In this document: positions 14,801-57,546 of the stretch, in pieces
Position numbering within the stretch: position 1 is the first letter of the stretch
Layout: each line of letters begins with the position of its first letter
Assembly (NCBI GenBank): GCA_965215045.1
Contig: OZ244031.1
Span: 1,066,626 to 1,130,625, forward strand
DNA length: 64,000 nucleotides
From: Gammaproteobacteria bacterium
GTDB taxonomy: Bacteria; Pseudomonadota; Gammaproteobacteria; JABABF01
Direction: 5' to 3'
The notes under the pieces: model-generated
Told to the model about the DNA's origin: nothing
Database searches by the model: none
Seen by the model: only the letters and a program-made list of their open reading frames with translations
Position numbers and translations under genes: made by a program

Positions 14801-14863
14801 GCCACCCCCCCTCTCAAGCCACCCCCCCTCTCAAAGCCACCCCCCCCCTCTCAAAGTCCCCCC
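14801..14863. repeat. three tandem copies of GCCACCCCCCCTCTCAAA (C7-C9 tracts); G7-G9 tracts on the minus-strand transcript
   Basis: Read directly. Lies in the 3' region immediately after the stop of the minus-strand paralog-1 gene (stop at 14851-14853). Four G-tracts in total give potential G-quadruplex or slippage behaviour. Confidence 0.8.
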
Positions 14864-15207
14864 CGGGTAACGATTGCGAGTATGCTCAGCTGGAGGAGGA
14901 CAATAATGCCGAACCCCCACCGTATCCATACGAAGGCCTGTTGGTTGCGTTTTTCAGACTCTTCATGGAGATACAGGCTGTATTTCTTAGACTCTTCATG
15001 GAGTTCCCGGCTGTATTTCTTAGCCTCTTCGTGGAGCTCCAGCATGCGCTGCTCAAGCTTCTCCAAGTCAGCGCGGATGGCCAGGCCCAGTTCTTTCACC
15101 ATGCTCGCCATCACCCGCAGGATACTGCGGATCTGCTGGTCGTCAAAGCCGGCTGCCTTCAGGTGTTCGCTCATGTCTTCGCGGTTTCGAAACGCTGGTT
15201 CAGTCAT
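14851..15207 (-). CDS. small membrane-anchored coiled-coil protein, paralog 1 of a three-member family (DUF1640-like architecture)
   Basis: 118 aa. Conserved N-terminus MTEPAFRNREDMSEHLKAAGFDDQQIRSIL..., 11-residue repeats (ELHEEAKKYSR/ELHEESKKYSL/YLHEESEKRNQ) and a C-terminal hydrophobic helix WIRWGFGIIVLLQLSILAIV. About 95 nt of 5' coding sequence plus the 5' leader are near-identical to the genes at 56679 and 57547. Confidence 0.6.
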   Translation of the reverse strand: MTEPAFRNREDMSEHLKAAGFDDQQIRSILRVMASMVKELGLAIRADLEKLEQRMLELHEEAKKYSRELHEESKKYSLYLHEESEKRNQQAFVWIRWGFGIIVLLQLSILAIVTRGGL

Positions 15208-15292
15208 GGTGACAATCTCCTTTTTGCCTCTTTCCAGAGGGTGGAAATAATACGCGCGTCCTGTGATTGTTCATCCTTGCCCCCTGCCTCAC

Positions 15293-15321
15293 ACTGTATT
15301 CGCTGTCTGCGGGAAAGTCAA
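15293..15321 (-). promoter_or_regulatory. near-consensus sigma70 promoter of paralog 1 (TTGACT-17-TACAGT on minus strand)
   Basis: Plus strand carries agtcaa (15316-15321) and actgta (15293-15298), spaced 17 bp apart. The same hexamers and a conserved 80-nt leader ending AAAAAGGAGATTGTCACC-ATG occur upstream of paralogs 2 and 3. Confidence 0.55.
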
Positions 15322-15372
15322 ACCGGTGTGAGAGTACCGCCATTACTGGCGCAAACGCTGACCGCGCGGGAT

Positions 15373-47093: not shown

Positions 47094-48500
47094 ATGCTGA
47101 TACCCGTCATTCTTGCCGGGGGCAGCGGTTCCCGCCTGTGGCCCCTGTCCCGGCGCCTGCACCCCAAGCAATTTCTACCCTTGAGCGGCGACAAGAGCAT
47201 GTTGCGCCAGACCCTGGAACGTTTGGATGTGCTGCCGGGGTGTGATGCGCCGATCGTGGTCTGTCACCGGGAGCACCGTTTCCTGGTCGCCGAGCAATTG
47301 CGCAGTGCCGGGTGTGCGGGGCCCGACGTGCTGCTGGAACCGGAGGGCAGGAACACGGCGCCCGCCATTGCGGTAGGCGCCTTGCGCGCCTTGCAACGCG
47401 CCGAAGATGCCGTCCTGCTGGTGCTGCCGGCAGACCATATTCTGGATGAACCCGCGGCCCTGGGCGTCGCGGTGCAGGCGGCGGAAACCCTGGCCGCACA
47501 GGAGTACCTGGTCACTTTCGGCGTTCCCGCCCGGGCGCCGAAAACCGGCTACGGTTATATCCGTTGCGGCGATGCGCTGGGTGAAGCCGGTTTCAAGGTG
47601 CGCAGCTTCGTGGAAAAACCTTCACGGGAACTGGCGCAACAGTACCTGGATGCGGGCGACTACCTGTGGAACAGCGGCATGTTTTTATTTGGCGCCGCGG
47701 AATACCTGCGGGAATTGGAACGCCTGGCACCGGAAATCTCCGCCGCCTGTCGTGCGGCGGTGCAGGCGGCGGAGAAGGACCTGGATTTCCTGCGCCTGCC
47801 GGAGGAGGAATACGCGCGTTGCCCGGCGGATTCCATCGATTACGCGGTGATGGAAAAAACCGCGCGCGCGGCGGTGACGCCATTGTCCTGCGGCTGGAGA
47901 GATGCGGGTGCCTGGTCGGAATTGTGGGCCGAGGAGGAACAGGATGCGGAGGGCAACGTGGTACTGGGAGACGTGGCGACCCTGGATGCGCGGGATTGCT
48001 ACCTGCGCAGTGAATCCCGCCTGCTCGCCGCCCTGGGGGTGCGGGACCTGGTGGTAGTGGAGACCGCGGATGCGGTGCTGGTCGCAGATCGCGAGCGGGC
48101 ACAACAGACCAGGGAACTGGTGCAGCTGCTGGAGTCCGGGGCGCGCCCGGAAGTCGAAGCCCACACCCGCGTCTACCGTCCCTGGGGGTATTACCAGACC
48201 CTGGAAAGCGGTGAGCGTTTCCAGGTCAAGCTGATCAACGTGACCCCCGGCCAGCGCCTGTCCCTGCAGATGCACCAGCAGCGCGCCGAGCACTGGGTGG
48301 TGGTGCGAGGCACGGCCACCGTGGTCTGCGAAGACAAGGAATTTACCCTGGAGACCGACCAGTCCACCTATATTCCGCTGGGCAGCCGGCACCGGCTGGC
48401 CAACGATACCGAGGATCCCCTGGAAATTATCGAAGTGCAGTCCGGTGCCTACCTGGGAGAGGATGATATCGTGCGTTTTGATGATGTCTATGGCCGCTGA
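47094..48500 (+). CDS. manC: bifunctional mannose-1-phosphate guanylyltransferase / mannose-6-phosphate isomerase (AlgA/ManC/XanB family)
   Basis: MLIPVILAGGSGSRLWPLSR nucleotidyltransferase N-terminus and C-terminal cupin (…GQRLSLQMHQQRAEHWVVVRG…). Confidence 0.85.
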   Translation: MLIPVILAGGSGSRLWPLSRRLHPKQFLPLSGDKSMLRQTLERLDVLPGCDAPIVVCHREHRFLVAEQLRSAGCAGPDVLLEPEGRNTAPAIAVGALRALQRAEDAVLLVLPADHILDEPAALGVAVQAAETLAAQEYLVTFGVPARAPKTGYGYIRCGDALGEAGFKVRSFVEKPSRELAQQYLDAGDYLWNSGMFLFGAAEYLRELERLAPEISAACRAAVQAAEKDLDFLRLPEEEYARCPADSIDYAVMEKTARAAVTPLSCGWRDAGAWSELWAEEEQDAEGNVVLGDVATLDARDCYLRSESRLLAALGVRDLVVVETADAVLVADRERAQQTRELVQLLESGARPEVEAHTRVYRPWGYYQTLESGERFQVKLINVTPGQRLSLQMHQQRAEHWVVVRGTATVVCEDKEFTLETDQSTYIPLGSRHRLANDTEDPLEIIEVQSGAYLGEDDIVRFDDVYGR

Positions 48501-48560
48501 GCGTCGGCCATGAGCGGGGAGCGGGAGCGGGGCGATGGGCAGGGCCCCGGTGCGTCGGCC

Positions 48561-49406
48561 ATGAGCGGCTCCCCGGTGCGCAAGTGCCTGTTCCCGGTGG
48601 CGGGCTACGGCACGCGCTTTCTGCCGGCGACCAAGTCGATGCCCAAGGAGATGCTGCCGATCGTCGACAAGCCGCTGGTGCACTTTGGCGTCGAGGAGGC
48701 CTTGCGAGCGGGCATGACCGAGATCGCCTTTGTCACCGGGCGCGGCAAACAGGCGATCACCGACTATTTCGACATCAGCTACGAACTGGAGGAGGAGATT
48801 CGCGGCACCCCCAAGGAGGAGCGCCTGGGCACGGTGCGCGACCTGTTGCAGGAGGGGCGTTTTACCTTTACCCGGCAGCGGAAAATCCAGGGCCTGGGAC
48901 ACGCGGTGCTGGCCGGCGGCGTATTGATCGGCGAGGAGCCTTTTGGCGTGGTGCTCTCCGATGACCTGTGCCTCAACGAGGGGGCGGGAGTGATGGCGCA
49001 ACTGGCGCGGGTGTTTGACGAACACCGCTGCTGCGTGGTGGCGGTCGAAGAGATCAACGACCCCGAAGTCCTGCAACGTTTCGGCGTGGTCGATGGCCGG
49101 GAGATCGCCCCGGGCCTGCTGGAAGTGAACGCCATGGTCGAAAAACCCGCCCCGGGCACGGCACCGAGCAAGCTGGCAATCCTGGGGCGCTACCTGTTGA
49201 CGCCGGACATTTTCGCGCGCCTGGAAAAACTGTCGCCGGGCAAAAACAACGAGATTCAACTGACCGACGCCCTGGAGCAGCAGGCGCGGGAGGAGCGGGT
49301 GCTGGCGTGGCGCATTCATGGCCGGCGCTTCGATTGCGGCGATGTCGCCGGTTACGTGGAAGCAACCAATTTCTATTACCGGAAATTTTATCTTGGGCGG
49401 GACTGA
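48561..49406 (+). CDS. galU: UTP--glucose-1-phosphate uridylyltransferase
   Basis: ...FPVAGYGTRFLPATKSMPKEMLPIVDKP... matches GalU. Two in-frame ATGs (48510 and 48561) lie in a duplicated 17-mer gcgtcggccatgagcgg; the downstream one is chosen. Confidence 0.8.
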   Translation: MSGSPVRKCLFPVAGYGTRFLPATKSMPKEMLPIVDKPLVHFGVEEALRAGMTEIAFVTGRGKQAITDYFDISYELEEEIRGTPKEERLGTVRDLLQEGRFTFTRQRKIQGLGHAVLAGGVLIGEEPFGVVLSDDLCLNEGAGVMAQLARVFDEHRCCVVAVEEINDPEVLQRFGVVDGREIAPGLLEVNAMVEKPAPGTAPSKLAILGRYLLTPDIFARLEKLSPGKNNEIQLTDALEQQAREERVLAWRIHGRRFDCGDVAGYVEATNFYYRKFYLGRD

Positions 49407-49478
49407 GCGCCCGGCGGCGGAGTGCAGCCGGGCAGGCGGCGCACGGCGGGGTGCGCACCCGGTGGCGGAGTGCGGCCG

Positions 49479-50834
49479 ATGAGTACGCTGCCCGGTTGTT
49501 TCAAGGCCTATGATGTGCGCGGCCGCGTGCCGCAGGAGTTGGACCCGGAACTGGCCCGGCGCATCGGCCGCGTGCTGGTGGATTTCCTGGGCGCGCGCCG
49601 CATCGCGGTCGGCTGGGATGTGCGGCACAGTTCCCCGGCCCTGGTGGAGGCCTTGTGCGAGGGTATCTGCAGTGCCGGTGCAGACGCCTGTACGATCGGC
49701 CTGTGCGGCACCGAAGAAATGTATTTCACCGTGTTTGACCGCGGGCTGGACGGCGGCGTCATGGTCACGGCCAGTCACAATCCCCCGGAATACAACGGCA
49801 TGAAAATCGTGCGCGAGGATGCCCGGCCGCTCAGTGCGGACACCGGCTTGTGGGAGCTGGGCACCCGGGTGGCGAACGGGGCCTGCGCGCGACCCGCGCG
49901 CGCCCCCCGGGGCCGGGTCCGGCACCTGCGACCGCGCGCCGCGTACGTGCGCAAACTGCTGTCTTTCGTGGAGACGGAGCGCTTGCGTCCGTTTCGCATC
50001 GTCTCCAACCCGGGCAATGGCGGCGCCGGTGAAATTATCGATCGCCTGGAACCGTGCCTGCCCTTTGAATTCATTCGCCTGCAGCATCGGCCCGACGGCG
50101 ATTTTCCGCACGGCGTGCCGAACCCGATGCTGGAGCAGAACCGCAGTCGCACCGCCCGGGCGGTGCGCCGACATCGGGCGGATTTCGGCCTCGCCTGGGA
50201 CGGGGATTTCGATCGCTGTTTTTTCTTCGATGAAAGCGGCGGCTTCATCGAGAGTTACTACTTGATCGGCCTGCTGGCAAAGAGTTTCCTGCACCGCAGT
50301 CCCGGGGCGGCGGTGGTCTACGAGCCGCGCCTGGTCTGGAACACCCTGGAGGCGGTCACAGGGAGCGGCGGCCGGGCGGTGCAGAGCAAGGCCGGGCATG
50401 CGTTTATCAAGGAAATCATGCGGCGGGAGGATGCGGTCTACGGCGGGGAGATGAGCGCACACCACTATTTTCGCGACTTCCGCTACTGCGACAGCGGCAT
50501 GATTCCCTGGTTGCTGGTCGCAGAATTGATGAGCGATGCCGGCGTTCCGCTCTCCCGCCTGCTGGATTGCCGACGCTTTCCGTGCAGTGGCGAGATCAAT
50601 CGTCCGGTGCAGAATGCCGCCCGGGTGATGGAGCGGGTGAAGGCGCACTACCGGGCATCGGCGCAATCGGTGGAGCACGTAGACGGTCTCAGTCTCGCTT
50701 TTGCCGACTGGCGTTTCAACCTGCGGCCCTCCAACACCGAGCCCCTGCTGCGTCTCAACGTGGAGAGCCGCGCCGACGAGGTGCTGCTGGCGCAGAAGAC
50801 CGCCGAGTTGCTGGAGTTGATCGACGGCAGTTAA
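49479..50834 (+). CDS. algC: phosphomannomutase/phosphoglucomutase
   Basis: ATG 49479 (M20 of ORF 49422..50834). FKAYDVRG N-terminus, TASHNP phosphoserine loop, GGEMSAHHYF sugar-binding motif. Confidence 0.85.
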   Translation: MSTLPGCFKAYDVRGRVPQELDPELARRIGRVLVDFLGARRIAVGWDVRHSSPALVEALCEGICSAGADACTIGLCGTEEMYFTVFDRGLDGGVMVTASHNPPEYNGMKIVREDARPLSADTGLWELGTRVANGACARPARAPRGRVRHLRPRAAYVRKLLSFVETERLRPFRIVSNPGNGGAGEIIDRLEPCLPFEFIRLQHRPDGDFPHGVPNPMLEQNRSRTARAVRRHRADFGLAWDGDFDRCFFFDESGGFIESYYLIGLLAKSFLHRSPGAAVVYEPRLVWNTLEAVTGSGGRAVQSKAGHAFIKEIMRREDAVYGGEMSAHHYFRDFRYCDSGMIPWLLVAELMSDAGVPLSRLLDCRRFPCSGEINRPVQNAARVMERVKAHYRASAQSVEHVDGLSLAFADWRFNLRPSNTEPLLRLNVESRADEVLLAQKTAELLELIDGS

Positions 50835-50841
50835 GCGCGTC

Positions 50842-52443
50842 TCAGTCCCGGTACCAGCTCGCCCACCGTCGCACCGTCGGTGAAACTTCGGCCTCCTTGC
50901 CGGCGAGCACCGCCCGCACCTCCGTCCCGATGGTCTTGCCCAGTTCCACCCCCCACTGGTCAAAGCAGTTGATATCCCACACCGCCGCGGCCGTGTAGAC
51001 GCGGTGTTCCCAGAGTGCCAGCAGTGCGCCCAGGCCCCGCGCATCCAGGGTGTCCAGGGCGAGCAGGCTGACGGGACGCCCGCCGGGAATACTGAGATGC
51101 GGGGCCAGCGTTTGCGCATCGGCCGGCGTCCACCCGCGGCGCACCAGCGCAGCACTCGCCTCCCCCGGGCTGCGCCCGCCGCTGAGTGCCTGTACCTGGG
51201 CCAGGCAGTGGGCCCACAGCTCCCGGTTGCGCGGCTCCTTGCGCCGTTCCCGGCCGCGGCGCACCAGCACGAATTCGACCGCTGCTTCCGGCGTGCCCTG
51301 GTAGAGCAATTGGTGGAAGCTGTGCTGACTTTCAGGGCCCGGCCCGCCCCACAGGACCGGCGCCGTGGCGTATTGCACCGGCTCGCCGCTGTTCTGCACC
51401 GACTTGCCATTGCTCTCCATCAGCAACTGTTGCAGGAATTCCGGCAGCCCGCGCAGGCGGTACGCGTAGGGAACCACGGCCCGCGCCCGGTGCCCGCAGA
51501 AGCTGGCGTGCCAGACGTCGAGCAGGCCCAGCAGCAGCGGCAGGTTCTGTGCCGGTGCGGTGCTGCGAAAATGCGCGTCCATCTGCGCCGCCCCGCGCAA
51601 CAATGCACGCCAGCGGGCATTGCCGTCCCGCAGTGCCAGCGGCAGCGCCATGGCCGACCACAGGGAATAGCGCCCGCCGATGCTGCCGGGAAACGGCAGG
51701 ATCGCCTCTTGTGGCACGCCCAGGCCGTGCACGGTCTCCGGGTTGGCGGTCACGGCCACGAAATGGCCGTCGATCGACGCCTCCCTGCCGGCCGCACCCC
51801 GCAGCCACTTGCGCGCCGCGCGGATATTCTGCAGCACCTCGCGCGTGGCCCCGGACTTGGAAGCCAGGATAAACAGCGTGTTTTGCGCTGCGAGCGTGTG
51901 CATGACCGCATCCCACTCCTCGCCATCGATGCCGCCCAGGAAGTGGCAGCGCAGCCCGCCCTGCCGCGCCGCCAATGCCTGCGTCAGCAAGCGCGGGCCC
52001 AGCAGGGAACCGCCGATGCCCACGTGCACCACATCGCGGAACGGCGCCCCGCTGAAACCGCGCCGACGACCGCTGCGCAACTGCGTGACCAGGGCCTCCG
52101 CCTGCCGCTGCGTTGCGCGCAACTGCCGCTGCGTTGCGCGCAAGCCCGGCGGGGCCGCCCCCGGTGCGGTTCGCAGCAGCGGATGCAGCACCTGGCGTCC
52201 CTCGCTGACATTGACCGGGGCACCCGCAAACAGGGCCTCGATCTTGCGTGCCACCCCGGTCTCCTGCGCCAGTTGCAGCAACAGCTCCAGGCACTGCGAG
52301 CCGGGCAGGGCGTGGCTGAGATCGGCGTGGATGCCCGCCGCTGTAAAGTGCAGCGGCCGTTGTTCCCGCGGCTCACCGCCCGGCGCGCCCTGTCGATATT
52401 TGCGCAGCGCCCGCCAGGCGGGCAGGGTGTCCGGCCCGGGCAT
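50842..52443 (-). CDS. pgi: glucose-6-phosphate isomerase
   Basis: ...TxAWxALxxHxxx... N-terminus and ...NRAVLHVALR...GGRYSLWSA... Pgi signatures; 533 aa. Confidence 0.85.
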   Translation of the reverse strand: MPGPDTLPAWRALRKYRQGAPGGEPREQRPLHFTAAGIHADLSHALPGSQCLELLLQLAQETGVARKIEALFAGAPVNVSEGRQVLHPLLRTAPGAAPPGLRATQRQLRATQRQAEALVTQLRSGRRRGFSGAPFRDVVHVGIGGSLLGPRLLTQALAARQGGLRCHFLGGIDGEEWDAVMHTLAAQNTLFILASKSGATREVLQNIRAARKWLRGAAGREASIDGHFVAVTANPETVHGLGVPQEAILPFPGSIGGRYSLWSAMALPLALRDGNARWRALLRGAAQMDAHFRSTAPAQNLPLLLGLLDVWHASFCGHRARAVVPYAYRLRGLPEFLQQLLMESNGKSVQNSGEPVQYATAPVLWGGPGPESQHSFHQLLYQGTPEAAVEFVLVRRGRERRKEPRNRELWAHCLAQVQALSGGRSPGEASAALVRRGWTPADAQTLAPHLSIPGGRPVSLLALDTLDARGLGALLALWEHRVYTAAAVWDINCFDQWGVELGKTIGTEVRAVLAGKEAEVSPTVRRWASWYRD

Positions 52444-53551: not shown

Positions 53552-54697
53552 ATGAGTATTCGAGATTTTCCCATCCGGATTTCCGACGAGGAAATCGCCG
53601 ACCTGCACCGACGCCTGGACAACGTCCGCTGGGGCGATGAACTCAACGATGCAGACTGGAGCTACGGTGCCGACATGCACTGGATCAAACGGCTGTGCGA
53701 CTACTGGCGCACGGATTTCGACTGGCGCGCCCAGGAAGCGCAACTGCAGCGTTTCGAACACTTCATTGCCGATACCGCGGGCGGCCAGGAAATTCACTTC
53801 ATTCATCATCGCTCCCGACACGAGAAAGCGCGCCCCCTGGTGATCACCCACGGCTGGCCCGGTTCGGTGTTCGAGTTCATGAAAATCATCGAACCGCTGG
53901 CAGATCCCGCCGCGCACGGGGGCCGCACAGAAGACGCCTTTCACGTGGTCTGTCCCTCGCTGCCGGGCTTCGGTTTTTCGCCACCGCCGACCGAACCCGG
54001 CATGGACCCCCGACGCGCCGCCGCCTGCCAGGTCGAGTTGATGAAGCAGCTGGGCTACAGCCGCTACATCGCCCAGGGCGGCGACTGGGGTGCCATGATC
54101 AGCACCGAGATGGGACGCCAGGACCCGGAAAACTGCGCCGGCGTGCATCTGAACATGCTGGTGGCGATGCCGCCTGCGGACGGGGATCCGATGGCGGGGC
54201 TGAGCGACGAGGAGAAACTCAACATGCAGACCTCCGAACAGTTCAGCAAGGAGGGGATGGGTTATTTTCATATCCAGAGCACCAAGCCGCAGACCCTGTC
54301 GTACGCGCTCAATGATTCGCCGGTGGGCCTGGCCGCGTGGATTGCCGAAAAGTTCCGCGCCTGGAGCGACTGCGACGGCGATGTGGAAAAGGTTTACACC
54401 CTCGATGAATTGCTGGCCAACATCTCGCTCTACTGGTTCACCCGCACCGCGGGCTCTTCGGCGCGCATGTACTACGAGACCATGCACAACGAGCAGAGCA
54501 CTGCCCGGGTGGAGGTTCCGACCGGTGCCGTGCTGTTTCCCAGGGAGTTGATGAAAGCCCCGCGTAAATGGGCGGAGGCCGCCTACAATATTGTCCACTG
54601 GAGCGTGATGTCCAAGGGGGGACATTTTGCGGCGATGGAACAGCCGGAGCTGCTGGTCGGGGATATCCGCAGCTTTGCCGCCTGCCTCAAAGACTGA
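53552..54697 (+). CDS. epoxide hydrolase (microsomal EH-like alpha/beta hydrolase with N-terminal EH domain)
   Basis: ...PIRISDEEIADLHRRLDNVRW... EH N-domain, HGWPGS oxyanion motif, nucleophile region QGGDWGA; 381 aa. Confidence 0.8.
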   Translation: MSIRDFPIRISDEEIADLHRRLDNVRWGDELNDADWSYGADMHWIKRLCDYWRTDFDWRAQEAQLQRFEHFIADTAGGQEIHFIHHRSRHEKARPLVITHGWPGSVFEFMKIIEPLADPAAHGGRTEDAFHVVCPSLPGFGFSPPPTEPGMDPRRAAACQVELMKQLGYSRYIAQGGDWGAMISTEMGRQDPENCAGVHLNMLVAMPPADGDPMAGLSDEEKLNMQTSEQFSKEGMGYFHIQSTKPQTLSYALNDSPVGLAAWIAEKFRAWSDCDGDVEKVYTLDELLANISLYWFTRTAGSSARMYYETMHNEQSTARVEVPTGAVLFPRELMKAPRKWAEAAYNIVHWSVMSKGGHFAAMEQPELLVGDIRSFAACLKD

Positions 54698-55083
54698 GGG
54701 AGACCCTGTCGGCTCCGCCCACCCGCCCCCGGCTGCCGCACCGGCTGCGGCTTCCTGCTCCTGCACCGCCCGCAGGCCCCTCGGCTGCCGCACCGCCTAC
54801 CCGCCTCTCCCCCGCTGTGCACCCCCGGACCGGGCCGCTTGCATTTTGTGTTGAAGTATGAATAATGCCCACTAAACTCTGTTTCAACCAAGCCGCGTAC
54901 AGTTGTGTATCGATTCATAACTGTTCATAAGGATCTCGATTCACCTGCGTTATCAAAGCGGTCAGTTTCGCTTTCTCTTGCCGGGCTGGCATCCCTTAAC
55001 AACAAGACAATAAAACCTGCGGGACTGGTATCGGCCTGATGCCCGCGCAAATAGAATTAACAAACCTGGCGGCTGGTGCTGCC

Positions 55084-55832
55084 ATGCCAAGGCACGCCAG
55101 GCACCCCAGGTGCGGCCCAGCGCAGACGGGGCCAAAATGCACCATAGAGAAAGCGGACTTCTCGGTGTTTCTCAATCGGCTGCCAGCAGGATCTGTTGAC
55201 TTGGTGCTGACCGACCCGCCTTATACAATCAGCCGCGAGACCGGTTTTGCCAATGTGGGGAAGAACGGGGTACAGCGGTTTGCAGTCTCTATGGACTTCG
55301 GTAAATGGGATAAGGTGCCGATTGACCTTGCCAGACTGTCGACGGATATGTACAGGACATTGCGTAAAGGCGGTACAGCAATCGTGTTTTATGACCTGTG
55401 GAAGTTAACGCATTTAGCGGACGCCCTGAGGACAGCGGGTTTCAAAATGTTGCGCTTGATTGAATGGCAAAAGACGAACCCGGTACCGTTGAACAGCAAG
55501 GCCACCTACCTCTCAAACAGCAGGGAGATCGCGGTCGTCGGTGTGAAGGGCGGCAAGCCACCTTCAATGGAGAGTATGACAACGGCGTTTACCGGTATCC
55601 CATCCCGCGGCACAATGGGCGCCGCATTCACCCGACGCAAAAGCCATTGGAATTGTTTGCCGAACTGGTGGAACGGCATACCAATGCCGGTGATTTTGTC
55701 GTCGACCCTTTCTTGGGCGGCGGCACGACTGCTGTCGCCGCATTATCAAAGGCGCGCCGTTTTGCCGGTTGTGATATTGACCCGGGATATGTCGAGGCGT
55801 CGAAGGAACGGCTCAAGATTGATGTCAAGTAA
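55084..55832 (+). pseudogene. beta-class DNA methyltransferase (DPPY motif IV then FxGxG motif I; N6-adenine type likely) interrupted by a -1 frameshift near 55550-55562
   Basis: Frame 1: ...SVDLVLTDPPYTISRETG...WQKTNPVPLNSKATYLSNSREIAVVGVKGGKP|PSME... Frame 3 continues ...TFNGEYDNGVYRYPIPRHNGRRIHPTQKPLELFAELVERHTNAGDFVVDPFLGGGTTAVAA... to TAA 55830-55832. The shift occurs in the G-rich stretch gaagggcggcaagccacc. Confidence 0.65.
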
Positions 55833-56433
55833 TCCAACTTTCCGGGAGGGCACGAAAGCGGCTGTTTTTATTGAGCTTGCCAGGCCGGACCAGGATGGCT
55901 TTTCCCGGAAAGTAAGCCTCGCAGAACTGGAAGAGCACGGGCTGGGAATGGGCAACGGCGGGAGTTGGTGCAGAAGGGATAGCGCATTGGGCATGCGCTA
56001 CAACATCCATCGGGAACTGCACAAGGGAAAGATAGTGGCAGTGGCATTGCACGGCTTCAACCAACTGCCGGCGAGGCGGGCAATACGGGCGGATATCAAA
56101 AAGGTGATCAAAAAACAGCGCTGTGCCGTACTGGATACCGGTCATCCTGAATGTGACCATAAGGACGGGCGCATTTATGATAAACCGGTTATGGAAATGA
56201 GCCAGCAGAGCGAGGAAGACTTTCAAGCACTGTCCAAGGCGGCAAATATGGCAAAGCGGCAACATTGCCGGAAATGTAAAGAAACCGGCCAGCGGTATGA
56301 TGCCAGGAATTTAGGCTATTCCATACCGCAGTTCAAGGGCAATGGAATTTATAGAGGAAGTTGTGTGGGTTGCTACTGGCATGACCCGAGGGCATTCAAT
56401 CGAGCGGTGAGCGACCGGGCAAGCCGCAAATAA
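55825..56433 (+). CDS. HNH-family endonuclease, putative Type II restriction enzyme partner of the methyltransferase
   Basis: ATG 55825 overlaps the methyltransferase stop by 8 nt. HNH/zinc-finger pattern ...C-AVLDTGHPECDHKDG...N...HCRKCK... and ...CVGCYWHD; 202 aa; no frameshift. Confidence 0.55.
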   Translation, partial: SSNPTFREGTKAAVFIELARPDQDGFSRKVSLAELEEHGLGMGNGGSWCRRDSALGMRYNIHRELHKGKIVAVALHGFNQLPARRAIRADIKKVIKKQRCAVLDTGHPECDHKDGRIYDKPVMEMSQQSEEDFQALSKAANMAKRQHCRKCKETGQRYDARNLGYSIPQFKGNGIYRGSCVGCYWHDPRAFNRAVSDRASRK

Positions 56434-56563
56434 TCCCCATTATTTCCAGGTTTTCCTGTTCCTCCGGGCCAGCCCGCAGGCCTCTCCCCCGCTGTGCACC
56501 CCGGACGATGAGCCTCCAGAATCCCATAAATTATGGACTTATATATTTTCCCGCAGGCGCGGT

Positions 56564-56592
56564 TTGACTTTCCCGCAGGAGGTGAATACAGT
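56564..56592 (+). promoter_or_regulatory. near-consensus sigma70 promoter of paralog 2 (TTGACT-17-TACAGT), flanked by a direct repeat of TTCCCGCAGG
   Basis: TTGACT 56564-56569, 17-nt spacer, TACAGT 56587-56592. TTCCCGCAGG occurs at about -50 and again within the spacer. Followed by an 80-nt conserved leader with a CCTCTggaaAGAGG hairpin, then AGGAGA ribosome-binding site and ATG 56679. Confidence 0.6.
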
Positions 56593-56678
56593 GTGATGCA
56601 GGGGGCCAGGGATTAGCAATCACAGGACGCGCGTATTACTTTCGCCCTCTGGAAAGAGGCAAAAAGGAGATTGTCACC

Positions 56679-57080
56679 ATGACTGAACCAGCGTTTCGAA
56701 ACCGCGAAGACATGAGCGAACACCTGAAGGCAGCCGGCTTTGACGACCAGCAGATCCGCAGTATCCTGCAGGTGGTAGCGGGGCTGATGAAAGAGATGGG
56801 CCTGGCCATCCGCGCCGACTTGGCGAAGAGTGAGCAGCGCAGCGATGAGCGTCATGAACGGGCCCAGAAACTCAGCGATGAGCGTCATGAACGGGCCCAG
56901 AAACTCAGCGATGAGCGTCATGAACGGGCCCAGAAACTCAGCGATGAGCGTCATCAGATCAACCTGGAATTGCATAAACAGGCCTTCTTATGGATACGGT
57001 GGGGGTTCGGCATGATCGGGTCTTTCCTGCTCGCCCTCCTGGGCATACTGATCACAGGTGTTATCAGGGGGTGGTTGTGA
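56679..57080 (+). CDS. small membrane-anchored coiled-coil protein, paralog 2 (DUF1640-like architecture)
   Basis: 133 aa. Same N-terminal 50 aa as paralogs 1 and 3. 3.5 copies of SDERHERAQKL from a perfect 33-bp DNA repeat at 56841-56957. C-terminal helix WIRWGFGMIGSFLLALLGILITGVI. Confidence 0.65.
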   Translation: MTEPAFRNREDMSEHLKAAGFDDQQIRSILQVVAGLMKEMGLAIRADLAKSEQRSDERHERAQKLSDERHERAQKLSDERHERAQKLSDERHQINLELHKQAFLWIRWGFGMIGSFLLALLGILITGVIRGWL

Positions 57081-57097
57081 TCCACTGCATCTGCCCG

Positions 57098-57220
57098 CAT
57101 CGCCCAGGGCGGCGACTGGGGTGCCCTGATCAGCACCGAGATGGGGCACCAGGACCCGGAAAACTGCGCCGGCGTGCACCTGAACATGCTGGTGGCGATG
57201 CCGCCTGCCTCAAAGACTGA
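57098..57220 (+). pseudogene. internally deleted fragment of the epoxide hydrolase gene (remnant of a tandem duplication)
   Basis: 57098-57204 matches hydrolase 54067-54177 (…IAQGGDWGA(M>L)ISTEMG…NMLVAMPP) and is joined at the 9-bp microhomology gccgcctgc to the last 12 nt of the hydrolase (ctcaaagactga; 54686-54697), removing about 508 bp. It carries several substitutions relative to the intact gene. Confidence 0.7.
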
Positions 57221-57431
57221 GGGAGACCCTGTCGGCTCCGCCCACCCGCCCCCCGGCTGCCGCACCGCCCGCGGTTTCCTGCTCCCGCACCGCCTGCCCC
57301 CGGCTGCCGCACCGGCTGCGGTTTCCTGCTCCTGCACCGCCCGCAGGCCTCTCCCCCGCTGTGCACCCCCGGACGATGACCCTCCAGAATCCCATAAATT
57401 ATGGACTTATATATTTTCCCGCGGGCGCGGG

Positions 57432-57460
57432 TTGACATTCCCGCAGGAGGCGAATATAGT
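57432..57460 (+). promoter_or_regulatory. near-consensus sigma70 promoter of paralog 3 (TTGACA-17-TATAGT)
   Basis: TTGACA 57432-57437, 17-nt spacer, TATAGT 57455-57460; the same conserved leader and ribosome-binding site follow. Confidence 0.6.
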
Positions 57461-57546
57461 GTGATGCAGGGGGCCAGGGATTAGCAATCACAGGACGCGC
57501 GTATTACTTTCGCCCTCTGGAAAGAGGCAAAAAGGAGATTGTCACC

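What the first reader, a model, noticed from the sequence alone, without database searches (positions are those of the whole stretch)
54766..56506. Restriction-modification cassette inserted with a 34-bp target duplication; the empty site is preserved in the neighbouring paralogous unit
A 1.64-kb segment (54831-56472) with visibly lower GC at its left end carries a methyltransferase gene overlapping a downstream HNH endonuclease gene (ATG 55825, 8 nt before the methyltransferase stop), the typical organisation of a Type II RM operon. It is bracketed by direct repeats of cccgcaggccyctcccccgctgtgcaccccggac. The tandem-duplicated sister unit (57338-57380) contains this sequence once and uninterrupted, an internal empty-site control showing the cassette arrived after the duplication, with a long target-site duplication. 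RM cassettes behaving as mobile units with long flanking duplications have been reported. No transposase or integrase accompanies this one.
Basis: partly seen in the sequence, partly recalled or inferred. Interest (0 to 1): 0.7.

Follow-up and report, generated by a model that had tools for sequence, protein, structure and literature searches.

The report
Restriction-modification gene island flanked by repeats
A foreign 1.6-kb restriction-modification gene pair with no recombinase sits in a repeat-rich chromosomal spacer between two copies of a roughly 30-bp host sequence, which is a known but poorly understood way for such genes to arrive; here the methylase gene is broken.

Summary
A 1.62-1.64 kb, low-GC insert (54831-56472; 53.5% GC against 65.4% for the window) carries a beta-class N6/N4 DNA methyltransferase gene. 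Its stop overlaps the start of an NlaIII/IceA1-family (Pfam ICEA, His-Me/HNH) restriction endonuclease gene.

The insert is bracketed by a host sequence that occurs exactly three times in the window: left of it, right of it, and once uninterrupted in the tandem sister unit. An independent short-read contig confirms both junctions.

- The repeat is 26-27 nt near-perfect. It reaches 34 nt only with a 23-nt interruption in the left copy.
- The endonuclease ATG is at 55822, not 55825.
- The methyltransferase is frameshifted here (CC for CCC at 55558-59) but intact in four related contigs.
- The claim that the cassette arrived after the duplication is not established.

A second lineage (SnoaL gene 94.6% identical) carries the same cassette at about 87% identity. 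Its flanks differ on both sides, and a 39-bp direct repeat made from the SnoaL 3' end brackets it.

Best reading: a horizontally acquired Type II RM island of the known "insertion with long target duplication" kind, now decaying. It is a new member of a known kind and of moderate interest.

The parts
53552..54697 (+). Epoxide hydrolase gene (381 aa). It is the left host neighbour.
   Evidence: Pfam EHN plus Abhydrolase_1. 99% identical to P0121 on L007.
54698..54803 (.). GC-rich, slippage-prone spacer downstream of the hydrolase gene. It holds 47-nt and 27-nt repeat units.
   Evidence: Repeat families D5, D7 and D8, alignment A1, and the 47-nt tandem repeat in the sister copy.
54804..54830 (.). 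Left copy of the flanking direct repeat (27-nt core CCTCTCCCCCGCTGTGCACCCCCGGAC). The extended 34-nt version is split by 23 extra nt at 54783-54805.
54831..56472 (+). Inserted RM cassette as bounded by the repeats. Homology with the second lineage runs from 54838 +/- 3 to 56459.
   Evidence: GC 0.535 against 0.654 for the window. Alignments with L011 and L009.
54899..54929 (+). 31-nt block in the cassette leader that is 100% conserved in window, L001 and L011. It contains the inverted repeat ACAGTT..AACTGT and is a candidate promoter or operator (inferred).
   Evidence: Alignment A3. The fold is not significant.
55039..55832 (+). Beta-class N6A/N4C DNA methyltransferase gene (DPPY before FxGxG). 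It is frameshifted here by loss of one C in the run at 55558-55559.
   Evidence: PADLOC MTase_II 1e-43. PDB M1.HpyAVI 4e-28. The frame break is shown. CCC is present in L001 and L013, and the reading frame is intact in L009 and L011.
55822..56433 (+). NlaIII/IceA1-family (His-Me/HNH) restriction endonuclease gene, 203 aa and apparently intact.
   Evidence: PF05315 E 1e-40. 288 homologues were found. All 29 invariant residues of a 26-sequence alignment are present.
56473..56506 (.). Right copy of the flanking direct repeat (34 nt, one C shorter than the other copies).
56507..57097 (+). Promoter region and small coiled-coil/TM gene S1 (56679-57080), which ends tandem unit 1.
57098..57339 (.). 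Start of tandem unit 2: a hydrolase pseudo-fragment (copy of 54067-54177) fused by the 10-bp microhomology TGCCGCCTGC to a copy of the hydrolase 3' end (from 54676) and the spacer downstream of it.
   Evidence: Repeat families D6 and D8; BLAST.
57340..57374 (.). Single uninterrupted copy of the repeat in unit 2, the paralogous 'empty site'.
57375..58239 (+). Promoter and small gene S2 (57547-58215) of unit 2.
58302..58928 (-). SnoaL-like gene, the right host neighbour. Its last 35-39 nt form the flanking repeat in the second lineage.
   Evidence: Pfam SnoaL_4. L009 and L011 comparisons.

Best explanation
This is a horizontally acquired Type II restriction-modification island. The M gene encodes a beta-class amino-methyltransferase. 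The R gene encodes an NlaIII/IceA1-family His-Me nuclease, translationally coupled to M through the ATGTCAAGTAA overlap. The recognition site is probably CATG or a site containing it (inferred, not tested).

The roughly 1.62-kb cassette carries no recombinase. It entered the GC-rich, repeat-prone spacer between the epoxide hydrolase gene and a small-gene module. A roughly 27-34 bp stretch of the target ended up on both sides. This matches the 'insertion with long target duplication' pattern described for RM units by Nobusato and by Furuta and Kobayashi, thought to depend on double-strand breaks and host repair rather than on a transposase.

Shown:
- Gene identities, foreign composition and junction structure.
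- The single-copy paralogous site.
- Absence of mobility genes.
- Presence of the same cassette with other flanks and another 39-bp flanking repeat in a second lineage.

Inferred:
- The insertion mechanism, the recognition sequence, and the order of insertion relative to the tandem duplication. That order is unresolved: either insertion into unit 1 after the duplication, or insertion first followed by repeat-mediated loss from unit 2.

The system is decaying in this clade. M is frameshifted in this genome and R is frameshifted in the second lineage. Both genes are intact in the one close strain contig that covers them fully (L001), and M is also intact in L013.
For: Gene identities:
- Pfam, PADLOC and PDB identifications.
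- The ICEA family corresponds to NlaIII/IceA1 in the His-Me classification (PMC5714182).
- IceA1 recognises CATG (title of Xu et al. 2002, cited in PMC3261200).
- The M-then-R order is conserved in the 66-68% identical relatives L002-L004, which sit in unrelated contexts without mobility genes.

Foreign origin:
- Insert GC is 0.535 against 0.654 for the window. GC3 is 3.7-5.5 SD below the host genes.

Repeat and junctions:
- The repeat core occurs 3 times against 0.01 expected.
- The three-way alignment shows that unit 2 joins the left flank of the left copy to the right flank of the right copy.
- The junctions are reproduced in L001.

Second lineage:
- L011 and L009 overlap at 98% identity. 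Their cassette is 85.7-86.6% identical to the window's over 54893-56459 (BLAST). The multiple alignment extends the match left to about 54838.
- Both flanks differ from the window's. A 39-bp repeat (37/39 identical) made from the SnoaL 3' end abuts the cassette's left end and recurs about 215 bp after the R stop.

Exclusions and precedent:
- No integrase, transposase, TIR, tRNA or known RNA.
- Published precedent and criteria (PMC2853133).
Against: - No orthologous empty site could be retrieved. The only 'empty site' is a paralogue in the same genome, which can also be produced by deletion.
- The clean repeat (26-27 nt) is shorter than the >30 bp used to define the published class.
- The target lies in a slippage-prone array, so a pre-existing local duplication cannot be excluded.
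- In the second lineage the native upstream flank of SnoaL (GCCGGCTGAAA) adjoins the right copy, and 36 nt of unrelated sequence adjoin the left copy. A simple target-duplication model does not predict this.
- L009 and L011 come from different samples and differ by 2%, so treating them as one locus is an assumption.
- The two relatives examined at 66-68% identity (L002/L003, L004) have no flanking repeats.
- CATG is not depleted in the window (observed/expected 0.93).
- An intact R beside a dead M should be lethal. Either R is inactive, another methylase protects the site, or the frameshift is an assembly error.
Confidence: 0.6

Rival explanations
1. The cassette inserted before the tandem duplication. 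The 3.03-kb unit 54067-57097 was duplicated with the RM inside it, and unit 2 later lost the RM by recombination between the two flanking repeats. On this reading the 'empty site' is an excision scar, not a pre-insertion state.
For: - Unit 2 has demonstrably suffered a deletion: 498 bp of its hydrolase copy were removed through a 10-bp microhomology.
- Unit 1 and unit 2 differ by only about 3-4% (97% over 300 bp, 96% over 111 bp). The lineage that also carries the cassette differs by 5.4% in SnoaL and 12-13% in the RM genes. This suggests the cassette predates the duplication.
- Flanking direct repeats are the classic substrate for precise loss. The literature also reports repeat-mediated amplification of RM units (PMC2853133).
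Against: - Gene conversion between tandem copies can make the duplication look younger than it is.
- The second lineage's cassette has different junctions on both sides, so it may be an independent arrival.
- This rival still needs an original event that created the two repeat copies. It therefore changes the timing, not the nature of the element.
Confidence: 0.35
2. Chance insertion between pre-existing repeats. The GC-rich spacer is a minisatellite-like array. A local tandem duplication of about 47 nt, including the core, already existed, and foreign DNA was joined in between the copies by illegitimate recombination. No duplication was generated by the insertion itself.
For: - The spacer contains 47-nt tandem units and a 27-nt partial duplication immediately left of the insert (54757-54782 against 54784-54809).
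- The 24 nt left of the right copy (56449-56472) resemble the array unit (GGTTTTCCTGTTCCT against GGTTTCCTGCTCCT) but are far more diverged than the core.
- Furuta et al. list this as a recognised third class.
Against: - The core itself (CTCTCCCCCGCTGTGCACCCC) is not part of the repeating unit. It is single in unit 2.
- The insert sits exactly at the end of the left copy, which would be a coincidence if duplication and insertion were unrelated events.
- The second lineage shows a different flanking repeat around the same cassette.
Confidence: 0.15
3. Site-specific integration. The repeat is an att core, and the cassette is the remnant of an integrative element whose integrase acts in trans or has been lost.
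For: Direct repeats of this length are typical of attL/attR. ICEA-family nucleases occur on many viral contigs (46 loci in IMG/VR).
Against: - No integrase lies in the cassette or within about 7 kb.
- The repeat is not a tRNA or any known RNA.
- The same cassette is bracketed by an unrelated 39-bp repeat in the second lineage, whereas an att site should be constant.
- The nearest viral relative is only 48% identical. There is no phage hit and only one weak plasmid hit (38%, Priestia) in the annotated collections.
Confidence: 0.05
4. Ordinary allelic transfer. The cassette with its repeats was formed once in some ancestor and has since spread among related strains by homologous recombination in the flanks (for example by transformation), so nothing 'mobile' happened in this genome.
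For: Against L001 the cassette and left flank differ at 8 positions in about 2.4 kb (7 substitutions and the M indel). Divergence jumps to about 11% immediately right of 56464, which looks like a recombination breakpoint at the cassette edge.
Against: L001 is a 4x-coverage metagenome contig. Its right end resembles the third small-gene paralogue (93% to 15241-15325), so the jump may be an assembly chimera or gene conversion. This rival does not explain the origin of the repeats.
Confidence: 0.1

Closest known systems
RM gene units inserted with long target duplication (Nobusato et al. 2000, Gene 259:99; Furuta, Abe and Kobayashi 2010, PMC2853133)
   Same: The insert contains R and M genes only and is far below 20 kb. 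It has no transposase or integrase. Its GC differs from the host. It is bracketed by direct repeats that are copies of a unique local sequence found once at an uninterrupted site.
   Different: The clean repeat is 26-27 nt (34 with a gap, 47 at 87%), against >30 bp and typically 46-400 bp in the published cases. The uninterrupted site is a paralogue in the same genome rather than an orthologous site in another strain. The target is a slippage-prone repeat array. A second lineage carries the same cassette with a different flanking repeat.
NlaIII (Neisseria lactamica) / IceA1-HpyI (Helicobacter pylori) CATG restriction-modification systems
   Same: R belongs to the same Pfam family (PF05315 ICEA, E 1e-40) and retains the conserved Cys and Asp-His/Asn residues of this His-Me group. 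As with iceA1, inactivating frameshifts are seen among strains.
   Different: The gene order here is M then R with overlapping stop and start. From my own knowledge, iceA1 lies upstream of hpyIM. The M here is a PF01555 beta-class enzyme whose closest solved relative is M1.HpyAVI. Whether it resembles M.NlaIII or M.HpyI was not tested. Specificity was not tested, and identity to characterised enzymes was not measured because REBASE was not available.
Integrase-borne or IS-borne RM islands (genomic islets, composite transposons)
   Same: A small RM island with flanking direct repeats.
   Different: There is no integrase or transposase, no terminal inverted repeats and no tRNA target. The flanking repeat differs between the two lineages.

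Membership tests
[quoted passage not shown] 2010 criteria) | The insert contains both R and M homologues. | tested here: met
   PF01555 and PF05315 hits. The M frame is broken in this genome but intact in L001 and L013.
[quoted passage not shown] 2010 criteria) | Insert shorter than 20 kb with no other mobile-element genes. | tested here: met
   The insert is 1.64 kb. No other ORF in it has a family hit. No TIRs were found. The neighbours are housekeeping genes.
[quoted passage not shown] 2010 criteria) | Flanking direct repeat longer than 30 bp. | tested here: inconclusive
   The repeat is 26-27 nt ungapped with one indel. It reaches 34 nt only if a 23-nt interruption of the left copy is allowed, or 47 nt at 87% against unit 2.
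[quoted passage not shown] 2010 criteria) | An empty site with a single repeat copy in a comparable genome. | tested here: inconclusive
   Only a paralogous site in the same genome was found (57340-57374). Close strains are filled (L001) or break in the repeats (L007). The syntenic relative L008 is too diverged.
[quoted passage not shown] 2010 criteria) | The repeat is unique in the genome and is not a tRNA or att sequence. | tested here: met
   Only the three expected copies occur in 64 kb. No tRNA or Rfam hit was found. The rest of the 2.08-Mb genome could not be searched.
NlaIII/IceA1 restriction endonuclease family (PF05315) | Profile match above the curated threshold over the whole domain. 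| tested here: met
   140 bits against a cut-off of 24, covering profile positions 1-202 of 218.
NlaIII/IceA1 restriction endonuclease family (PF05315) | Conserved catalytic and zinc-binding residues present. | tested here: met
   All 29 invariant columns of a 26-sequence alignment are kept. One near-invariant Pro is Ala here.
NlaIII/IceA1 restriction endonuclease family (PF05315) | Recognition of CATG. | not testable with these tools
   REBASE and biochemical assay were not available. CATG is not depleted in the window (0.93).
Beta-class N6A/N4C DNA methyltransferase (PF01555) | Motif IV (DPPY) precedes motif I (FxGxG), with a full-length profile match. | tested here: met
DPPY is at 55213 and FLGGG at about 55710.
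Beta-class N6A/N4C DNA methyltransferase (PF01555) | Uninterrupted reading frame. | tested here: not met
   One nucleotide is missing in the C run at 55558-59. L001 and L013 have CCC, and L009 and L011 read through in frame.
Integrase-mediated integrative element | A tyrosine or serine recombinase gene in or next to the element, with a constant att core. | tested here: not met
   No such gene was found. The flanking repeat differs between the two lineages.
IS, composite transposon or MITE | Terminal inverted repeats and a short fixed-length target duplication. | tested here: not met
   The best inverted pair involving an end is 13 nt at 85% and is internal. There is no transposase.

The most novel reading that the evidence does not exclude
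The 1.62-kb M-R cassette may be an autonomous mobile unit that needs no recombinase of its own. On this reading it has inserted at least twice in one clade: once at the hydrolase spacer and once at the SnoaL 3' end. Each time it copied about 27-39 bp or more of the target to both sides, with the duplicated copy butting directly against the same cassette left end (TTGCATTTT). That would give two natural before-and-after states of the still unexplained 'insertion with long target duplication' reaction, with a defined cassette terminus. The reciprocal decay (M dead here, R dead there) would record what happens after invasion.
Probability: 0.2. Interest if true: 0.6.

Novelty: new member of a known kind. 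Interest (0 to 1): 0.38.

Why it matters
How RM gene pairs move without transposases or integrases is still unexplained. The published evidence consists of comparative cases, mostly in cultured and naturally competent species.

This locus adds a case from an uncultured, 65% GC environmental bacterium with three useful features:
- A within-genome reference copy of the target site.
- An independent contig confirming both junctions.
- A sister lineage in which the same cassette sits between a different pair of direct repeats.

Together these define the cassette ends to within a few bases (54838 +/- 3 and 56459-56472). The locus also shows the expected afterlife of such selfish units, with a frameshift in M in one lineage and in R in another. 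It does not change the current picture of RM mobility; it is a clean, well-delimited example.

Tried and rejected
- **Orthologous empty site, genome scan.** The genome-contig scan with the hydrolase protein returned only 52-56% identical Acidobacteria genes.
- **Orthologous empty site, protein search.** The big protein search with the hydrolase found nothing between 99% and 71% identity. The 69% hit (L008) is syntenic but has other genes in the interval.
- **Metagenome scan with the repeat core.** No hits.
- **Metagenome scan with the SnoaL 3' end.** Only 72-77% identical SnoaL homologues came back, and the collection does not even hold L009 or L011.
- **Taxonomy.** My last protein search, with PGI, used too strict an E-value and returned only the self hit.
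- **Terminal inverted repeats, tRNA or Rfam RNA at the repeat, secondary structure of the repeat.** All negative.
- **Flanking repeats around the 66-68% identical relatives.** None found.
- **Carriage on known plasmids or phages.** One 38% hit on a Priestia megaplasmid and no phage hit.
- **A shared piece of the hydrolase spacer at the cassette's right end in L009.** The similarity is only at about the 99th percentile of random windows, so it was not relied on.
- **Identity of the 36 nt left of the 39-bp copy in L011.** They match nothing significantly.
- **CATG avoidance as a sign of long residence.** Absent.
- **Programmed frameshift or functional M-R fusion.** Considered and rejected as the default. 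Four related contigs simply have the intact frame, and the open R frame upstream of the ATG is explicable by GC content.
Full report
**1. What is in the sequence**

Downstream of an epoxide hydrolase gene (53552-54697; Pfam EHN and Abhydrolase_1) lies a GC-rich, repeat-laden spacer. At 54830/54831 the composition drops sharply. GC falls from about 0.70 to about 0.50 and stays near 0.50-0.58 until about 56470.

The segment 54831-56472 is 53.5% GC against 65.4% for the window. Its two genes have GC3 of 0.645 and 0.576, against 0.795 +/- 0.04 (minimum 0.714) for 22 host genes.

It contains three parts:
- A 208-nt AT-rich leader.
- A methyltransferase gene starting at ATG 55039 and ending at TAA 55830-55832.
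- An endonuclease gene from ATG 55822 to TAA 56431-56433.

The two genes overlap in ATGTCAAGTAA.

**2. Gene identities**

With one base restored, the methyltransferase matches Pfam N6_N4_Mtase over the whole profile (E 3.7e-32). It also matches PADLOC MTase_II (1.3e-43) and the solved N6-adenine enzyme M1.HpyAVI (3.7e-28). DPPY precedes FxGxG, which is the beta-class motif order.

The endonuclease matches Pfam ICEA (PF05315, E 9.9e-41, profile positions 1-202 of 218). In the published classification of His-Me finger nucleases this family is the group of Type II enzymes NlaIII and IceA1 (PMC5714182). IceA1 is a CATG-recognising enzyme (title of Xu et al. 2002, cited in PMC3261200).

The endonuclease has 288 homologues in the large protein collection. 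The nearest outside its own clade are 66-68% identical. It keeps all 29 invariant residues of a 26-sequence alignment. In the 66-68% identical relatives, a PF01555 methyltransferase gene again lies immediately upstream, in unrelated chromosomal contexts and without mobility genes (L002-L004).

It is therefore a genuine Type II M-R gene pair. Specificity (CATG or a site containing it) is inferred from the family only.

**3. The methyltransferase is broken in this genome**

The frame changes at the C run 55558-55559 (GGCAAGCC-ACC). Two independent ENA metagenome contigs of near-identical strains have GGCAAGCCCACC and an intact gene (L001 and L013). The more distant L009 and L011 are also intact there.

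The deletion joins the N-terminal 173 codons of M to the R frame, which happens to be open. This gives the 464-aa ORF 55039-56433. The source genome's own annotation holds a 410-aa product (P0243).

In about 17 kb of comparison with short-read contigs (L001, L007, L010, L012, L013, L014), this is the only indel outside the variable, non-coding right flank. The assembly is therefore not riddled with indels, and the frameshift is probably real. Only the raw reads can settle it.

R is identical to that of the intact-M strain L001 (P0001). An intact R with a dead M should be lethal, and this remains unexplained.

In L009 the opposite has happened. M is intact, but R has an extra G at the position of window 55907-08 and loses its first 24 or so residues.

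**4. The flanking repeat**

The 22-nt core CCTCTCCCCCGCTGTGCACCCC occurs exactly three times in the window, at 54804, 56481 and 57348, against 0.01 expected.

The right copy (56473-56506) and the unit 2 copy (57340-57374) are colinear over 34-35 nt and continue together into the small-gene promoter region (GATGAGCC/GATGACCC...).

The left copy is identical to the unit 2 copy over the last 27-28 nt. Further left it is either interrupted by 23 nt (54783-54805) or, read without gaps, 87% identical over 47 nt. So the repeat is real and highly non-random, but "34 bp" overstates the clean part.

The 24 nt left of the right copy (56449-56472) faintly resemble the spacer unit but are much more diverged than the core. 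L009 shows that at least TTCCTGT (to 56459) belongs to the cassette.

**5. The sister unit**

The segment 57098-58239 is a tandem copy of 54067-57097.
- The junction lies in the 7-bp microhomology CATCGCC.
- Its hydrolase piece (57098-57208, a copy of 54067-54177, 96% identical) is fused through the 10-bp microhomology TGCCGCCTGC to the hydrolase 3' end. This means 498 bp were deleted.
- Unit 2 has the spacer, one copy of the repeat, then the promoter and a second small gene.

**6. Independent confirmation and relatives**

L001 (ENA ERZ21849000, 2592 bp) spans hydrolase, spacer, left repeat, cassette, right repeat and small-gene promoter at 99% identity. The structure is therefore not an assembly artefact. 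It also means the closest strain is not an empty site.

L007 and L012 (MAG GCA_964348175.1) end inside the spacer and inside the small gene. This is expected if that strain also has the repeats.

L008 (a 2-Mb contig, about 70% nt identity) keeps the synteny hydrolase ... SnoaL-SDR-SDR-UvrA. It has other genes and no RM in the interval.

**7. A second lineage with other junctions**

L009 (JGI 3300007064) and L011 (JGI 3300007151) overlap at 98% identity. Together they cover the cassette at 85.7-86.6% nucleotide identity to the window. M is 87% and R is 87% identical at the protein level. The adjacent SnoaL gene is 94.6% identical at the nucleotide level.

BLAST aligns the cassette from 54893, and the multiple alignment carries the match left to about 54838 (GC.TTGCATTTT). 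On the right it ends at 56459. Both flanks differ from the window's.

On the left, the cassette abuts a 39-bp fragment identical at 37 of 39 positions to the 3' end of SnoaL (stop codon plus 11-12 codons). That fragment is preceded by 36 nt that match nothing. On the right, about 215 bp of GC-rich repeats separate R from the real SnoaL 3' end.

So the same cassette is again bracketed by a direct repeat of local sequence, but a different one.

Caveats:
- The two contigs come from different samples.
- The native upstream flank of SnoaL adjoins the right copy rather than the left. A simple staggered-cut model does not predict this.

**8. What it is not**

- No integrase or transposase lies in the cassette or within about 7 kb.
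- There are no terminal inverted repeats.
- The only tRNA in the window is 26 kb away, and there is no Rfam match.
- The repeat has no notable secondary structure.
- The endonuclease family does occur on 46 IMG/VR viral contigs, but at 48% identity or less.
- There is no phage hit and only one weak plasmid hit in the annotated collections.
- The two 66-68% identical relatives examined have no flanking repeats.

**9. Interpretation**

The anatomy fits the class described by Nobusato et al. (2000) and Furuta et al. (2010, PMC2853133). That class covers R+M units shorter than 20 kb, without mobility genes, flanked by long and variable direct repeats that occur once at the empty site.

Two of their criteria are only partly met here: repeat length above 30 bp, and an empty site in another genome. 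The alternative they name, chance insertion between existing repeats, is a live rival because the target is a slippage-prone array. Against that rival, the core is not part of the repeating unit, and the insert begins exactly at the end of the left copy.

**10. Order of events**

A duplication that included the cassette, followed by recombination between the two repeats in unit 2, gives the same picture, and unit 2 has already lost other DNA.

The units differ by about 3-4%. The lineage that shares the cassette differs by 5.4% in SnoaL. Taken at face value this makes the cassette older than the duplication, but gene conversion or independent acquisition could mislead. I regard the order as unresolved.

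**11. Verdict**

This is a real, well-delimited, horizontally acquired NlaIII/IceA1-family RM island flanked by a duplicated target sequence. It is a new member of a known kind of RM-linked rearrangement, in an uncultured bacterium, with its methyltransferase inactivated in this genome.

It is of moderate interest. The value lies in the precise boundaries, the internal reference site and the second lineage with different flanking repeats, not in a new principle.

Noticed in passing
window 55558-55559 and ORF 55039-56433: The methyltransferase has CC where four related contigs keep the frame intact. The shift runs into the open R frame and creates a 464-aa fusion ORF: M N-half, 89 out-of-frame residues, then the whole of R. 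The source genome annotates a 410-aa product. An intact R with a dead M is paradoxical.
   Followed up: partly
L009 about 880-890 (window 55907-55908 equivalent): In the second lineage the endonuclease gene has an extra G and loses its first 24 or so codons, while M is intact. This is the reciprocal of the decay seen in the window.
   Followed up: partly
window 54899-54929: The 31-nt block ACAGTTGTGTATCGATTCATAACTGTTCATA is 100% conserved between the two cassette lineages, in a leader that is otherwise about 75% identical. It contains the inverted repeat ACAGTT/AACTGT. It is a candidate promoter or operator of the RM operon, and no C-protein gene is present.
   Followed up: partly
window 56679-57080, 57547-58215 and 14851-15207 (-): There are three paralogues of a small protein with a conserved N-terminus (MTEPAFRNREDMSEHLKAAGFDDQQIRSIL), a coiled-coil middle built from in-frame 33-nt or 75/108-nt tandem repeats of variable number, and a C-terminal TM helix. 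The Pfam CCDC90-like match is weak. The module, including its promoter and 51 nt downstream, is shared with the distant third copy.
   Followed up: partly
window 57098-57208 and 57199-57253: A hydrolase pseudo-fragment lies in tandem unit 2. A copy of 54067-54177 is joined to a copy of 54676 onwards through the 10-bp microhomology TGCCGCCTGC. The tandem-duplication junction itself uses CATCGCC. These are clear footprints of illegitimate recombination.
   Followed up: yes
window 57250-57341 and 54719-54809: A 47-nt GC-rich tandem repeat (2 copies in unit 2, 1.5 in unit 1) makes up the spacer downstream of the hydrolase gene. Contigs of related strains break here.
   Followed up: partly
L009 1420-1610: About 190 bp lie between the RM and SnoaL in the second lineage. 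They contain five copies of CCAGACCAGCG, two copies of CCCGCCGGCAGTGNCGTGAACGGCG, and an inverted pair GTTCTATGGGGTGGGC/GCCCACCCCATAGAAC. This may be a small repeat element and is absent from the window.
   Followed up: no
L001 2399-2592 against window 56464-56645 and 15241-15325: Divergence between the near-identical strain contig and the window jumps from about 0.3% to about 11% exactly at the cassette's right edge. The last 85 nt are closest to the third small-gene paralogue. This is either a recombination breakpoint, gene conversion, or a low-coverage assembly chimera.
   Followed up: partly
whole window: CTAG is almost absent (2 observed against 22 expected). TCGA is 1.6-fold over-represented. 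CATG, the presumed RM target, is not depleted (0.93).
   Followed up: no
window 47685-51410 (-): A 1241-aa ORF with no family hit runs antisense to the real NTP-transferase, PGM and PGI genes, which are called on the related contig L007. It is a spurious high-GC antisense ORF, not a gene.
   Followed up: yes
R residue 136 (window about 56227-56229): The window and L001 enzymes have Ala where at least 90% of 26 aligned family members, including L009, have Pro (DFQ-P-LSKAAN motif next to the catalytic Asn). The effect is unknown.
   Followed up: no
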